The position numbers were made by a program, and so were the translations under genes. Of a DNA stretch of 64,000 nucleotides, positions 10,533 through 61,051 are shown in pieces. The stretch's first letter is position 1. The number at the start of each line of letters is the position of its first letter. This stretch comes from Escherichia phage vB_Eco_Solly: sequence record OY720021; one strand, written 5' to 3'. A model generated the notes under the pieces. It saw only the letters and a program-made list of their open reading frames with translations. It was not told where the DNA came from and searched no databases.

Positions 10533-11951
10533 TTATGGATAGGTATAGATGATACCAGTTTCTAAAGCAGTTTTGTGAATGATGTATCCATTACGCGATT
10601 CTTGGACATCAACTTCTGGATAGTCTTTCATCATCTTCTGAAGAGTGTAACGATGCAGGTAGTATTTACTATCTGGATCTTCAGTTTTCCAATCTTTACC
10701 TTCTTCAGTCATTTTTTGGATTTCATCCATAACCCACCAACCGCACCAGATGTAAGCTGAGCTACGGTGTGGAAGAGGATGAACATAAGGTAATTCACCT
10801 TCTGGTTCTGGAGCAACTTTATCAGTTACCTGAACTTGACCTTCTGCCGTAATAGTTTTGCTATCATAATCAGCAGCAGTAACAGTTGCAGTAACTTCAA
10901 TAGTTTGACTTCCAATAGATGAGGTATCAACTGTATATACATTAGTTGACCCTTCTACAGGAGAAGAATCTTTCTTCCATGAATACTCAATTTGCGCTTC
11001 TTCTGGAGCATCAGTGACATTAGCAGTAAATGTAGCCGAAGCATCTTGCTGAACGTTAATAGAAGGAGGAGACAATGTAACCTGTGGATTCATTGTCTTC
11101 TTATTAACCGTTAATGATACTTCATTCGAAGTAACTTCCTTTTCATTGTAATTTTCAGCAGTTACTTGGGCTACGCATTTAATTCTTTTTACTCCACTTG
11201 TAGTTGGAGTATAGTTAAATGTAGAGTTAGTTTCTCCACCAACTTGTGAATCATCTACATACCACTGATACGTAGCAGATGCTCCATCAGGTTGAGAAGC
11301 TAAGGCAGCAGTAAATTGAACTGGGGTTCCGATTACTCCTGCTGGAGGACTATCAGGAGTTACTGCCAAGGTAGTTGTCTGCTCCTTTTTATTAACAGTC
11401 AGTGATACTTCATTAGAAGTAACGCTTAGTGCATCATAATCTGTCGCAGTTACTTGAGCCACACACTTAATTCTTTTTACCCCGCTTTCGGCAGGAGTGT
11501 AATTGAACGTAGCGTTAGTTGCTTCGCCCACAGGAGAATCATCTACATACCATTGATAAGTAGCGTTTGCGCCCGATGGCTGCGAAGCTAAAGCGGCAGT
11601 AAATTCAATAGCTGTTCCGATTACTCCAGCGTCAGGGCTATTAGGAGTTACAGCTAAGGTGGTCGTTTGTGTCTTATTTTGAACTGTGATAGTTGTAGTA
11701 GCTTCTGCTGTTTCAGCATCAGTATCTGGGACTGGGTTTGTTGCAACTACTTTAATAGTCTTTTGACCGGCAGGTCCTTTTAATACATAATTAAAAGTTG
11801 CTTCAGCTCCATCTTGTGGAACATCATCTACAGTCCAAGCATATGTAATAGGTCCATCTCCAGTTTGACCACTGGGTGTAGCAGTAAACTGCTGAGTCTG
11901 ATCTATAACTCCAGTAGGTGTTTTAGGAGTTATATCAACTGTAAAAGCCAT
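10533..11951 (-). CDS. hoc: Hoc outer capsid decoration protein with four Ig-like domains plus C-terminal capsid-binding domain
   Basis: 472 aa; conserved C-terminal capsid-binding segment (EGELPYVHPLPHRSSAYIWCGWW...); internal 96-aa tandem repeat (residues 95-190 and 191-286). Confidence 0.93.
   Translation of the reverse strand: MAFTVDITPKTPTGVIDQTQQFTATPSGQTGDGPITYAWTVDDVPQDGAEATFNYVLKGPAGQKTIKVVATNPVPDTDAETAEATTTITVQNKTQTTTLAVTPNSPDAGVIGTAIEFTAALASQPSGANATYQWYVDDSPVGEATNATFNYTPAESGVKRIKCVAQVTATDYDALSVTSNEVSLTVNKKEQTTTLAVTPDSPPAGVIGTPVQFTAALASQPDGASATYQWYVDDSQVGGETNSTFNYTPTTSGVKRIKCVAQVTAENYNEKEVTSNEVSLTVNKKTMNPQVTLSPPSINVQQDASATFTANVTDAPEEAQIEYSWKKDSSPVEGSTNVYTVDTSSIGSQTIEVTATVTAADYDSKTITAEGQVQVTDKVAPEPEGELPYVHPLPHRSSAYIWCGWWVMDEIQKMTEEGKDWKTEDPDSKYYLHRYTLQKMMKDYPEVDVQESRNGYIIHKTALETGIIYTYP
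11094..11669 (-). repeat. tandem direct duplication (2 x 288 bp) inside hoc encoding two near-identical Ig-like domains
   Basis: protein residues 95-190 and 191-286 align with few substitutions; DNA units visibly similar. Confidence 0.85.
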
Positions 11952-11960
11952 AAGTTATCC

Positions 11961-12641
11961 TTATTTTAATGTTACGAAAGAAGAATTGCGTGTTTCACGA
12001 ATTAAAACTGATCCGTCACGGTTAATGTAATAAATTAAGCTAAATAAAGTTTGGTGTGCTGACGCATGCTCAAAACTAGTTGGGTGAGATTTCCAATCAG
12101 GAGTTTCAGCAATCCATTGATAAATCCACCAAGGAACAGTGCAGAATCCTGGATTTTTTCCAATCAGCTGAAGATTCGGACTAAAGTTTTCCGGAAGAGT
12201 AAATACAGACGGCTTTTCAGATTCAATAATCTCAGCTACAGCCTGTTCAAACTTTTCTTCAACAAAGGGAGTATCTTCAATCAAAACTGAGGTATTTTCA
12301 GGAATTTTATCCGTTTCTACTACTTCAATTTTAATGTCAGATTTAACCGGAGAATCAATCAGAAGTGCTGCTTCTGGATTGACTTCTTCATCGTCATATT
12401 TTAATCCCTCTGCGGCATCAGCAGCATCAATTAAGTCTTTAATAGATAACCCATCAGTCTCTGGCATAGGTTCACTAGCGAGCTTCTGGAGGGCTTCTTC
12501 AATATCAACAACGATATTATCAAAAGATTTATTCTTTTTGACCTTTATACCAAACTGTTCAGCATATTCAGCTAATTTAGCTTTAGCTTCTTTATTATCA
12601 TCAAGAGCCTTCAGCTCTGCAATATAATCTTTATCTATCAT
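11961..12641 (-). CDS. inh: Inh, inhibitor of prohead protease gp21
   Basis: 226 aa as in T4; immediately downstream of hoc on the same strand. Confidence 0.85.
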   Translation of the reverse strand: MIDKDYIAELKALDDNKEAKAKLAEYAEQFGIKVKKNKSFDNIVVDIEEALQKLASEPMPETDGLSIKDLIDAADAAEGLKYDDEEVNPEAALLIDSPVKSDIKIEVVETDKIPENTSVLIEDTPFVEEKFEQAVAEIIESEKPSVFTLPENFSPNLQLIGKNPGFCTVPWWIYQWIAETPDWKSHPTSFEHASAHQTLFSLIYYINRDGSVLIRETRNSSFVTLK

Positions 12642-12654
12642 AATATTTCCTCAG

Positions 12655-12662
12655 TATAAATA
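12655..12662 (+). promoter_or_regulatory. late promoter box TATAAATA (uvsW)
   Basis: exact consensus 30 nt upstream of uvsW ATG. Confidence 0.6.
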
Positions 12663-12691
12663 TAGATATATTTATTACATGGTATTTAGAC

Positions 12692-14203
12692 ATGATTGAC
12701 ATTAAAGCACATTTTTATGATTTTAGTCACGTGAGAATTGACTGTGAAGAAAGTACATTTCATGAACTCCGTGATTTCTTTAGCTTTGAAGCTGATGGGT
12801 ATCGTTTTAATCCGAAATACAAATATGGCCACTGGGATGGACGAATCCGTCTTTTAGATTATAATCGTCTTCTTCCATTCGGCTTAGTCGGGCAAATTAA
12901 AAAGTTCTGTGATAACTTTGGCTATAAAGCCTGGATTGACCCGCAAATTAACGAAAAAGAAGAATTATCAAGAAAAGATTTTGATGAATGGCTTTCTAAA
13001 TTAGAAATCTATTCAGGAAATAAAAGAATTGAACCGCACTGGTATCAAAAAGATGCAGTGTTCGAAGGATTAGTTAATCGTCGTAGAATTCTTAATCTTC
13101 CAACATCCGCTGGTAAATCGTTAATTCAAGCTTTGCTTGCTCGGTATTATTTGGAAAATTATGAAGGTAAAATTCTTATCATTGTTCCAACAACTGCCTT
13201 AACAACTCAGATGGCTGATGACTTCGTCGACTATCGTCTATTCAGTCATGCAATGATAAAGAAAATTGGTGGCGGAGCATCAAAAGATGATAAATATAAA
13301 AATGATGCACCAGTCGTTGTTGGTACATGGCAAACTGTAGTTAAACAACCAAAAGAATGGTTCTCACAGTTTGGAATGATGATGAATGATGAATGCCATC
13401 TTGCTACAGGAAAAAGTATTTCATCTATCATATCAGGTTTAAATAACTGCATGTTCAAATTCGGTTTGTCTGGTTCATTACGTGATGGCAAAGCTAATAT
13501 CATGCAGTATGTTGGGATGTTTGGTGAAATATTTAAACCAGTAACGACTTCTAAATTAATGGAAGATGGACAAGTAACTGAGCTAAAAATTAATAGTATT
13601 TTTCTTCGCTATCCCGATGAGTTCACTACTAAATTAAAGGGAAAAACTTATCAAGAAGAAATAAAAATTATTACGGGGCTTAGTAAAAGAAATAAATGGA
13701 TCGCTAAATTAGCTATTAAGCTTGCGCAAAAAGATGAAAACGCTTTTGTCATGTTTAAACATGTATCACATGGTAAAGCTATTTTCGATTTAATTAAAAA
13801 TGAATACGATAAAGTTTATTACGTATCAGGGGAAGTTGATACCGAAACCCGCAATATAATGAAAACCTTAGCTGAAAATGGTAAAGGAATAATTATAGTA
13901 GCTAGTTATGGTGTATTTTCTACTGGTATTTCAGTTAAAAATCTGCATCACGTTGTTTTAGCGCACGGTGTTAAATCAAAAATCATTGTATTACAAACAA
14001 TCGGTCGTGTATTACGTAAGCATGGTTCTAAGACAATAGCAACCGTCTGGGACCTCATAGATGATTGTGGCGTTAAGCCAAAATCTGCTAATACGAAAAA
14101 GAAATATGTTCATTTGAACTATCTTTTAAAACACGGCATTGATCGTATTCAGCGCTATGCAGATGAAAAATTTAATTACGTAATGAAAACAGTTAATTTA
14201 TAA
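12692..14203 (+). CDS. uvsW: UvsW RNA-DNA and DNA-DNA helicase
   Basis: 503 aa; Walker A TSAGKS and DECH box; late promoter box upstream. Confidence 0.95.
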   Translation: MIDIKAHFYDFSHVRIDCEESTFHELRDFFSFEADGYRFNPKYKYGHWDGRIRLLDYNRLLPFGLVGQIKKFCDNFGYKAWIDPQINEKEELSRKDFDEWLSKLEIYSGNKRIEPHWYQKDAVFEGLVNRRRILNLPTSAGKSLIQALLARYYLENYEGKILIIVPTTALTTQMADDFVDYRLFSHAMIKKIGGGASKDDKYKNDAPVVVGTWQTVVKQPKEWFSQFGMMMNDECHLATGKSISSIISGLNNCMFKFGLSGSLRDGKANIMQYVGMFGEIFKPVTTSKLMEDGQVTELKINSIFLRYPDEFTTKLKGKTYQEEIKIITGLSKRNKWIAKLAIKLAQKDENAFVMFKHVSHGKAIFDLIKNEYDKVYYVSGEVDTETRNIMKTLAENGKGIIIVASYGVFSTGISVKNLHHVVLAHGVKSKIIVLQTIGRVLRKHGSKTIATVWDLIDDCGVKPKSANTKKKYVHLNYLLKHGIDRIQRYADEKFNYVMKTVNL

Positions 14204-60265: not shown

Positions 60266-61051
60266 ATGGCAATTGTAGGTGTTCCTGGCTGGATTGGCGA
60301 ATCTGCCGTGAATGAAACTGGACAACGTTGGATGGATGCTGCGATGAGAGCAGTTCGTGTTTCAGTTCCCGGTTGGATGAGTTCAATGGCTGGGCAATCT
60401 AAAGAAGTATATTATAGCATTGGTGCTAGTAATTCTTATAATAAAGATACATTAATAAACTGGATAAAAGCACAAGGGTCCACGCCTGTTGTTATTACTA
60501 TTACAGGAAATATTGTTTCTCAATCTACTGGTGTTCCATGCTTAGATTTTCCTAGCTCATTAACTAATGCATACGTGACACTTAATATCAATTCAGGCGT
60601 GCACGTTTGGGGCCGTGGCGGGAATGGCGGAAATAACTCTGCCGGTGGAGCAGGAGGAACTGCAATAAATAATGGAATTGGAACTAGATTGCGTATTAAC
60701 AACAATGGTGTTATCGCAGGAGGCGGTGGAGGCGGTGGAGGCGGATATTATTCTCCTTTTTCACAAATGAGATTAACCTTTGGCGGCGGTGGTGGGCGTC
60801 CGTTTGGTGCTGCCGGTGGGTCTGCTAATATGGAACAGGGTGCTACTGCTGGTACTATTTCTGCACCAGGTAAAGGGTCTGTCAACGGTATCTATAATGG
60901 CGGGAATGGTGGTGATGCCGGAGCCGCAGGAGGTAAATGTAATATTCGCGGTCAAGGATCAGAATATAACGGCGGTGCGGCCGGTAAAGCTGTTACTGGT
61001 AATGCTCCAACTTGGACTAAGGTTGGTACAATATACGGTTCAAGAGTATAA
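60266..61051 (+). CDS. 38: gp38 tail fiber tip adhesin with glycine-rich motifs (T2/T6 type)
   Basis: 261 aa; poly-Gly motifs (GGGGGGGGGYY, GGGGGRPFGAAGG) separated by variable segments. Confidence 0.9.
   Translation: MAIVGVPGWIGESAVNETGQRWMDAAMRAVRVSVPGWMSSMAGQSKEVYYSIGASNSYNKDTLINWIKAQGSTPVVITITGNIVSQSTGVPCLDFPSSLTNAYVTLNINSGVHVWGRGGNGGNNSAGGAGGTAINNGIGTRLRINNNGVIAGGGGGGGGGYYSPFSQMRLTFGGGGGRPFGAAGGSANMEQGATAGTISAPGKGSVNGIYNGGNGGDAGAAGGKCNIRGQGSEYNGGAAGKAVTGNAPTWTKVGTIYGSRV

What the first reader, a model, noticed from the sequence alone, without database searches (positions are those of the whole stretch)
11094..11669. Hoc carries an extra, tandemly duplicated Ig-like domain (472 aa)
The conserved C-terminal capsid-binding segment is intact, but residues 95-190 and 191-286 are a near-identical 96-aa tandem repeat encoded by a 2 x 288-bp direct duplication. 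T4 Hoc, as I recall, is 376 aa with three Ig-like domains, so this one would project one domain further from the capsid. Hoc is the display/adhesion fibre, so domain number may affect surface or mucin adherence; the direct repeat is also a substrate for expansion and contraction by recombination.
Basis: partly seen in the sequence, partly recalled or inferred. Interest (0 to 1): 0.6.

Follow-up and report, generated by a model that had tools for sequence, protein, structure and literature searches.

The report
Common four-Ig-domain Hoc capsid fibre
This T4-like phage's capsid decoration protein Hoc does carry one more immunoglobulin-like domain than T4's, but the two repeated domains are old, diverged copies (79% identical) and the same 472-residue form occurs in about a third of sequenced T4-genus phages, so it is an ordinary allele already in the databases.

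Summary
The ORF at 10533-11951 (-) is an intact 472-aa Hoc lying between inh and gene 24.3, as in T4. It contains a tandem 2 x 288-nt (2 x 96-aa) repeat at the stated coordinates, and T4 Hoc is 376 aa with one such unit. The units are not near-identical: they share 74% of nucleotides and 79% of residues, dS is about 1.3, dN/dS is 0.12, and the longest exact shared run is 17 nt. This is an old duplication kept under purifying selection. It is not an assembly artefact or a fresh event. The form is common. About 30% of roughly 650 Tequatrovirus hoc records have it (teqskov 98.5% identical, RB27, phiD1). About 22 records carry three units (568-570 aa). Units group by position (A, B and C types) across phages. 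Single-unit alleles are block mosaics of A and B. FL08's unit is 97.9% identical to window A[1-99]+B[100-288], which fits contraction by unequal crossover. Dhakavirus/Gaprivervirus-type Hoc duplicated a different domain independently. AlphaFold2 gives four confident beta-sandwich domains. Variable Ig-domain number in Hoc is already published. Any effect on mucus adherence is inferred only. Verdict: real, partly mis-described, already known, low interest.

The parts
10533..11951 (-). hoc CDS, 472 codons plus stop (highly immunogenic outer capsid protein)
   Evidence: ORF. 98.5% nt identical to teqskov 'Hoc-like head decoration'. E = 1.7e-218 to T4 Hoc chains 5vf3/8t1x.
11670..11951 (-). Ig-like domain 1 (residues 1-94)
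   Evidence: Aligns to T4 Hoc residues 1-94. AF2 beta-sandwich with pLDDT about 90. 87.9% nt identical to T4.
11382..11669 (-). Ig-like/PKD domain 2a (residues 95-190), the 'A-type' unit, which is the unit extra relative to T4
   Evidence: Repeat unit. Ig_2/BiPBP_C envelopes fall in residues 123-186. The A lineage is shared with teqskov_2a (100%), RB18 single unit (91%) and UGKSEcP2_3a (86%); it is 79% identical to T4 D2.
11094..11381 (-). Ig-like/PKD domain 2b (residues 191-286), the 'B-type' unit, counterpart of T4 domain 2
   Evidence: Pfam PKD best stretch 195-267. 91% nt identical to T4 D2, 95% to teqskov_2b, 93% to RB27_2b. HMMER aligns residues 191-472 to T4 95-376.
10824..11093 (-). 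Ig-like domain 3 (residues 287-376)
   Evidence: Pfam Ig_3/I-set 289-373. AF2 strands 290-376. Aligns to T4 residues 191-280.
10536..10823 (-). Linker and C-terminal capsid-binding domain (residues 377-472)
   Evidence: Nearly identical to T4 Hoc 281-376 (97.8% nt, dN 0.004). Role in binding gp23* hexamers is taken from Fokine et al. 2023 (PMC10385173). The AF2 model is low-confidence here.
11961..12641 (-). inh (prohead protease inhibitor), immediately upstream; conserved gene context
   Evidence: ORF. Same order as T4 and teqskov.

Best explanation
This is a bona fide hoc gene of a Tequatrovirus (T4-genus) phage. It belongs to a common allele class in which the second Ig-like (PKD-type) domain is present as two diverged tandem copies, A then B. 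By analogy with T4 (established, not tested here), one Hoc monomer binds the centre of each gp23* hexamer through the conserved C-terminal domain, and the Ig-like domains project outward as a fibre. The extra domain should lengthen the fibre by one Ig module, roughly 4 nm on a T4 fibre of about 18 nm (inferred). It also adds a second D2 surface. The duplication is old: the A/B split is about four times deeper at synonymous sites than the window-versus-T4 divergence of the flanking domains. Both copies are under purifying selection, so both are presumably folded and functional. Across the genus the D2 units form a recombining family. Arrays of 1, 2 and 3 units coexist, units are orthologous by position, and single-unit alleles are block mosaics of A and B. 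The simplest explanation is occasional unequal crossover (contraction and expansion) plus ordinary allelic recombination and gene conversion during co-infection.
For: Identity and context. Four domains: Pfam PKD/Ig hits on both units and on D3; the AF2 model has pLDDT about 90 over residues 1-376 with four beta-sandwich units; Foldseek hits four-Ig chains and RB49 Hoc 3shs. Age and selection: 74% nt and 79% aa identity; dS 1.33 and dN/dS 0.12, against window-versus-T4 dS of 0.29 (D1), 0.34 (D3) and 0.10 (CTD). Commonness: 656 records match, and 18 of 60 evenly spaced records span 1419-1425 nt in one piece while about 34 span about 1131 nt. The top 120 protein clusters comprise 29 of 472 aa, 80 of 376 aa and 8 of 568-570 aa, and some 472-aa clusters hold 58-167 member sequences. 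About 22 phage records carry the three-unit form. Positional orthology: 2a units are nearest to 2a/3a units and 2b units to 2b/3c units. Mosaics: FL08 is a-type for nt 1-95 and b-type for nt 103-288 (max chi2 65.6, permutation p <= 0.0002). RB18 switches at nt 239/241. T4 is b-type with an a-type patch at about nt 220-246. FL08's unit is 97.9% identical to the chimera WIN_2a[1-99]+WIN_2b[100-288], with flanks 97-98% identical to the window. An independent duplication of D3 occurred in Dhakavirus/Gaprivervirus-type Hoc.
Against: No experiment or read data were available, so expression, assembly on the capsid, fibre length and any adhesion phenotype of the four-Ig form are inferred. The direction of events cannot be polarised. 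A-head/B-tail single units could also arise by equal crossover between an A-type and a B-type single-unit allele, and FL08 carries a third variant ('PPG') at its breakpoint. The AF2 inter-domain geometry and the C-terminal domain are unreliable (pTM 0.54, CTD pLDDT below 50, shallow alignment). The population frequency is estimated from a 60-record sample, not a full count.
Confidence: 0.88

Rival explanations
1. A recent in-situ tandem duplication, near-identical and unstable, specific to this phage. Copy number would then be heterogeneous in the population.
For: The period is an exact 288 nt with no indels and the units are in frame.
Against: The units differ at 74 of 288 nt, dS is 1.33, and the longest exact run is 17 nt. 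The same A and B units occur at the same positions in teqskov (100% and 95%), RB27 (85% and 93%) and others.
Confidence: 0.03
2. An assembly artefact: a mis-assembled repeat creates a spurious extra unit.
For: Tandem repeats can be mis-assembled, and no reads were available to check.
Against: Copies 26% divergent are not collapsed or expanded by assemblers. The ORF is intact. About 200 independently sequenced genomes share the 1419-nt architecture.
Confidence: 0.01
3. The two-unit array did not arise by duplication and divergence within one lineage. Instead, unequal (out-of-register) recombination between two already diverged single-unit hoc alleles, one A-type and one B-type, from co-infecting phages placed them side by side.
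For: Single-unit alleles that are almost purely A-type (P0096, RB18) or mostly B-type (T4, FriedrichZschokke) exist. The A/B synonymous divergence (1.33) far exceeds that of the flanking domains among alleles (about 0.3). Tequatrovirus genomes are highly mosaic.
Against: Pure-A and pure-B single units are equally what unequal crossover in the conserved unit ends (QTTTLAVTP / TSNEVSLTVNKK) of an A-B array would produce. The D1/D2 and D2/D3 boundaries share little sequence to guide such an event. Three-unit arrays (A-B-C) also exist.
Confidence: 0.3
4. The extra domain is a nearly neutral length polymorphism acting as a spacer, with no specific adaptive effect on mucus or surface adherence.
For: Hoc is dispensable in the laboratory (PMC10385173). 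It is frameshifted in several deposited genomes (T2, PST, FriedrichZschokke). Forms with 1, 2 and 3 units coexist among very close relatives; the window is 97.8% identical over 25 kb to both a 4-Ig and a 3-Ig phage.
Against: Both units show dN/dS of about 0.12, so each is held as a folded domain. Published work maps glycan/MUC2 binding to individual Ig domains, including the S183-L184-T185 motif of D2 in PNJ-9 (PMC11853027). That motif is present in both window units (S183/L184/T185 and S279/L280/T281).
Confidence: 0.4

Closest known systems
T4 Hoc (NP_049793.1, 376 aa; PDB 5VF3, 8T1X, 8T9R)
   Same: Same gene position (inh-hoc-24.3). [quoted passage not shown]
   Different: T4 has one D2 unit and the window has two. 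T4's unit is B-type with a short A-type patch.
Escherichia phage teqskov Hoc (YP_010074588.1, 472 aa) and other 472-aa Tequatrovirus Hoc (RB27 YP_009102382.1, phiD1, BF15, and others)
   Same: Identical architecture and length. teqskov is 98.5% nt identical, its D2a is 100% and its D2b 95% identical.
   Different: Only point differences. The window is another member of this allele class.
Five-Ig Tequatrovirus Hoc (UGKSEcP2 CAH1615504.1, 570 aa; UGKSEcP1, EC101, YUEEL01, slur03/08/14, T4_ev151)
   Same: Same D1, D3 and CTD and the same family of 96-aa D2-type units. The first unit is A-type, 86% nt identical to the window's.
   Different: Three D2-type units (A, B', C) instead of two.
Dhakavirus/Gaprivervirus-type Hoc (e.g. 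vB_EcoM_IME341, 472 aa; VR20, 377 aa; 282-aa forms)
   Same: Homologous Hoc with 2, 3 or 4 Ig-like domains, so the same kind of domain-number polymorphism.
   Different: The extra domain there is a copy of D3 (58-77% aa identity between domains 3 and 4), not D2, so the duplication is independent. Only about 47-49% identical to the window protein.
Published Hoc diversity: Fokine et al. 2023 (PMC10385173), Wu et al. 2024 (PMC11150434), Fu et al. 2024 (PMC11853027)
   Same: These papers describe Hoc as a conserved capsid-binding domain plus a variable string of Ig-like domains. They cover 650 homologues, with 1 to 10 Ig domains (Serratia phage Muldoon has 10). [quoted passage not shown]
   Different: In the text I could read, none singles out the 472-aa D2-duplicated Tequatrovirus allele or the A/B/C unit mosaicism.

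Membership tests
Hoc (highly immunogenic outer capsid protein) of T4-like phages | C-terminal capsid-binding domain homologous to T4 Hoc residues 281-376 | tested here: met
   Window residues 377-472 align to T4 281-376 with only a few substitutions. 97.8% nt identical, dN 0.004.
Hoc (highly immunogenic outer capsid protein) of T4-like phages | N-terminal string of Ig-like (PKD / I-set type) domains | tested here: met
   Pfam PKD above its gathering score (42.3 vs 23.5 bits), plus Ig_2, PKD_4 and PKD_3. AF2 gives four beta-sandwich units with pLDDT about 90. Foldseek matches four-Ig chains and RB49 Hoc 3shs.
Hoc (highly immunogenic outer capsid protein) of T4-like phages | Position in the head-gene region between inh and 24.3/24.2/rnlB | tested here: met
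   inh is directly upstream, 24.3- and 24.2-like ORFs are downstream, and uvsW lies beyond inh.
Hoc (highly immunogenic outer capsid protein) of T4-like phages | One monomer bound at the centre of each gp23* hexamer on the mature capsid | not testable with these tools
   Requires virions (cryo-EM or biochemistry). Inferred from the near-identity of the CTD to T4's (PMC10385173).
Recent (near-identical) tandem duplication prone to copy-number instability | Copies nearly identical at the nucleotide level, with long uninterrupted homology | tested here: not met
   74% nt identity, dS 1.33, longest exact run 17 nt.
Recent (near-identical) tandem duplication prone to copy-number instability | Copies within one genome closer to each other than to the copies at the same position in other genomes | tested here: not met
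   WIN_2a is 83-100% identical to 2a/3a units of other phages but 74% to WIN_2b. WIN_2b is 85-95% identical to other 2b units. The protein-level nearest-neighbour table agrees.
Bacteriophage-adherence-to-mucus (BAM) adhesin | Ig-like domains bind mucin glycans (fucose/MUC2) | not testable with these tools
   Shown for T4, PNJ-6 and PNJ-9 Hoc in the literature. Here only conservation can be shown: the D2 'SLT' motif is present in both units and D342 (= T4 D246) is present. Position 29 is Q, not the E reported as critical in PNJ-6.

The most novel reading that the evidence does not exclude
The D2 region of Tequatrovirus hoc works as a naturally recombining cassette array. Copy number (1-3) and the A/B/C segment composition would turn over quickly among co-circulating phages. 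Selection would act on this turnover, tuning fibre reach and avidity for mucin or bacterial-surface glycans, or escaping anti-Hoc antibodies. The four-Ig allele would then have a measurable phenotype distinct from T4's three-Ig Hoc.
Probability: 0.15. Interest if true: 0.5.

Novelty: already known. Interest (0 to 1): 0.18.

Why it matters
[quoted passage not shown] Domain number is therefore relevant to phage therapy persistence and to engineering. The four-Ig form is not a discovery, because it is widespread and annotated. The useful point is practical: T4's 376-aa Hoc is only one of three common length classes in its own genus (376, 472 and 568 aa). The D2 units are shuffled among alleles. 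Results on binding sites obtained with T4, PNJ-6 or PNJ-9 Hoc should not be carried over to other therapeutic T4-like phages without checking which hoc allele they carry.

Tried and rejected
1. I tried to count four-Ig records from the 'covers at least 80%' figure of search_dna_similar. This was rejected because the tool joins the two pieces of a three-Ig match into one place with 100% coverage. I used the span and piece number of an evenly spaced 60-row sample instead.
2. The IMG/VR scan gave only 4 close relatives, too few for nucleotide analysis of the units. It was useful only for the distant Dhakavirus-type Hoc. I fetched 14 GenBank loci instead.
3. Five literature searches looked for an explicit description of a D2 duplication in Tequatrovirus Hoc and found none. 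Sathaliyawala et al. 2010 (PMC2909354) is not held. The supplements of Fokine et al. 2023 are not held as usable text.
4. The Foldseek PDB search confirms only a generic four-Ig string. The large rmsd values show that inter-domain geometry cannot be compared.
5. I considered a diversity-generating retroelement or programmed variation as the source of D2 mosaicism and did not pursue it. The variation is in shared blocks between alleles, as recombination produces, and not in adenine-specific substitutions.
6. I checked whether unit differences concentrate in loops. 14 of 20 fall outside DSSP strands, against 48 of 96 positions, which is suggestive but not significant, so no claim is made.
7. The tRNA scan was empty and the tandem-repeat scan of the whole window found nothing else comparable.

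Full report
**Observation**

The window holds an intact 472-codon ORF at 10533-11951 on the minus strand. Tandem Repeats Finder reports one 288-nt period array of 2.0 copies at 11097-11660, score 662. The repeat finder reports two gapless 288-nt copies at 11097-11384 and 11385-11672.

The copies are not near-identical. They share 214/288 nt (74%) and 76/96 residues (79%). The differences fall 17/12/45 over codon positions 1/2/3, with 36 synonymous and 20 non-synonymous codon changes. Nei-Gojobori estimates give dS = 1.33, dN = 0.15 and dN/dS = 0.12. The longest uninterrupted in-register identity is 17 nt. The repeat is therefore real and far beyond chance, but it is an old duplication with both copies under purifying selection.

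**Identity of the gene**

The ORF is Hoc.
- Its only match among PDB sequences is T4 Hoc (5vf3, 8t1x and others), with E = 1.7e-218. Residues 1-113 align to T4 1-113 and residues 191-472 to T4 95-376, so there is one extra 96-residue unit.
- T4 hoc in NC_000866 is 1131 nt = 376 aa and lies between inh and 24.3. The window has the same neighbours, as does its closest relative, phage teqskov.
- Pfam finds PKD/Ig-type matches on both repeat units and on D3.
- An AlphaFold2 model built on 29 homologues gives four beta-sandwich domains over residues 1-376 with pLDDT about 90. The C-terminal domain is poorly modelled.
- Foldseek returns four-Ig ectodomains and RB49 Hoc 3shs.

**How common the form is**

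The window is a Tequatrovirus genome. Its first 25 kb are 97.8% identical both to teqskov, which has a four-Ig hoc, and to FriedrichZschokke, which has a three-Ig hoc.

Megablast of hoc finds 656 phage records, and the top 40 all carry the 1419-nt form. In a sample of 60 records taken at even steps down the ranking:
- 18 have a single-piece match of 1419-1425 nt;
- about 34 have a match of about 1131 nt in two pieces;
- 2 are longer.

Roughly 30% of records, about 200, therefore have the four-Ig form. They include the RefSeq phages teqskov, RB27 and phiD1.

In the large protein collection the best 120 clusters comprise 80 of 376 aa, 29 of 472 aa and 8 of 568-570 aa. Some 472-aa clusters hold 58-167 member sequences. 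The 568-570-aa proteins carry three D2-type units, and about 22 phage records have them. This excludes an assembly artefact and shows that the form is already catalogued.

**Evolution of the units**

I compared the 288-nt units of 12 hoc genes from the window and 13 fetched loci.

Units group by position rather than by genome:
- an A lineage: window 2a, teqskov 2a at 100%, RB18's single unit at 91%, UGKSEcP2 3a at 86%;
- a B lineage: window 2b, teqskov 2b at 95%, RB27 2b at 93%, T4's single unit at 91%;
- a C lineage: UGKSEcP2 3c and Killian 2b, 99% identical to each other.

The protein-level nearest-neighbour table over 157 units agrees.

The A/B synonymous divergence (1.33) is about four times that between the window and T4 in D1 (0.29) and D3 (0.34). 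The split therefore predates the divergence of the sampled alleles, or A and B came from more distant sources.

At the 74 sites where the window's A and B differ, single-unit alleles are block mosaics:
- FL08 is A-type up to nt 95 and B-type from nt 103 (max chi-square 65.6, permutation p <= 0.0002);
- RB18 switches at nt 239/241;
- T4 is B-type with an A-type patch at about nt 220-246;
- ST0 and FriedrichZschokke have other patterns.

FL08's unit is 97.9% identical to the in-silico chimera window-2a[1-99]+window-2b[100-288], and its flanks are 97-98% identical to the window. An unequal crossover inside a window-like array would produce exactly this A-head/B-tail product with loss of 288 nt.

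At the protein level, the 82 single-unit sequences analysed (80 clusters of 376-379 aa plus T4 and one 472-aa cluster in which only one unit was recognised) show 45 different A/B patterns. Recombination among these units is therefore pervasive.

I cannot polarise the events. Equal crossover between A-type and B-type single-unit alleles would give similar chimeras, and FL08 has a third variant at its breakpoint.

**Wider context**

In the Dhakavirus/Gaprivervirus-type Hoc lineage (about 47-49% identical to the window protein), Hoc has 2, 3 or 4 Ig-like domains. There the extra domain is a copy of D3, with 58-77% identity between domains 3 and 4. That duplication is independent of the one in the window.

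The literature already describes Hoc as a conserved capsid-binding domain carrying a variable string of Ig-like domains.
- Fokine et al. 2023 report 650 homologues with up to 10 Ig domains (PMC10385173).
- Wu et al. [quoted passage not shown]
- Fu et al. 2024 describe a two-Ig variant that binds MUC2 fucose through S183-L184-T185 of D2 (PMC11853027).

I found no paper that singles out the D2-duplicated 472-aa allele.

**Mechanism**

Shown here: the protein is an intact Hoc with a T4-like capsid-binding domain and four confidently predicted Ig-like domains, and both D2 copies are under purifying selection.

Taken from established T4 work (PMC10385173): one Hoc monomer sits at the centre of each gp23* hexamer and projects as a fibre of about 18 nm.

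Inferred:
- The extra domain adds about 4 nm of reach, using a typical Ig-module length from my own knowledge.
- It adds a second D2 surface. The 'SLT' motif reported as a MUC2-binding site in PNJ-9 is present in both units (S183/L184/T185 and S279/L280/T281). D342, equivalent to T4 D246, is conserved. Position 29 is Q, not the E reported as critical in PNJ-6.
- Whether this changes adherence, avidity or antigenicity is untested.
- As I recall (Singer et al. 1982, not checked here), T4 recombination falls off sharply below about 50 bp of homology. With at most 17 nt of exact identity, contraction within this genome should be rare, even though it is visible over evolutionary time.

**Verdict**

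There is an extra Ig-like domain, the T4 comparison is correct, and expansion and contraction are supported by comparative evidence. The feature is a common, already catalogued allele of a protein whose variable domain number is published. Interest is low. The residual novelty lies in the 1/2/3-unit polymorphism and the A/B/C mosaicism, which could matter for phage-therapy and display work if it has a phenotype.

Noticed in passing
L034 (T2, PV958097) 301-1417; L030 (PST, KF208315) 301-1720; L024 (FriedrichZschokke, MZ501067) 301-1430: hoc is frameshifted or fragmented in several deposited Tequatrovirus genomes: T2 is annotated as three CDS pieces, PST is 1420 nt and FriedrichZschokke is 1130 nt. 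FriedrichMiescher and NHEP10 are annotated as two parts. This could be decay of a non-essential gene in laboratory stocks or sequencing errors.
   Followed up: partly
window 12642-12691: Only a 50-nt gap separates inh (11961-12641, -) from uvsW (12692-14203, +). T4 carries the homing endonuclease gene segE at this site, and segD between genes 23 and 24. teqskov also lacks both.
   Followed up: partly
L006 1501-2916 (vB_EcoM_IME341), L007, L012: Dhakavirus/Gaprivervirus-type Hoc independently duplicated its third Ig-like domain: domains 3 and 4 are 58% aa identical in L006 and 77% in L007. The 282-aa forms (L012) keep only D1 and a D3-type domain.
   Followed up: yes
window 1-64000: The window is mosaic with respect to known phages. 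The best matches are teqskov and FriedrichZschokke (97.8%) for 1-25 kb and PhiZZ6 (97.1%) for 25-50 kb. The tail-fibre end (50-64 kb) reaches only 93-94% to its best matches, and only 79 of 840 matching records cover at least 80% of it.
   Followed up: partly
window, 18 sites (e.g. 1581, 5124, 12655, 14708): The T4 late-promoter core TATAAATA occurs 18 times, against 8.9 expected from shuffles, and no shuffle reached 18. Upstream of inh-hoc on the minus strand the nearest motif is AATAAATA, one mismatch.
   Followed up: no
window 60719-60744: A perfect 9-nt tandem repeat, GGAGGCGGT x 2.9, lies in the tail-fibre region and may encode a glycine-rich stretch.
   Followed up: no
L027 (UGKSEcP2) 301-2013; L033 (Killian) 301-1719: The last D2 unit of the three-unit UGKSEcP2 Hoc is 99% nt identical to the second unit of the two-unit Killian Hoc ('C-type'). 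The window's second unit is B-type. Two-unit arrays therefore come in at least A-B and A-C versions.
   Followed up: partly
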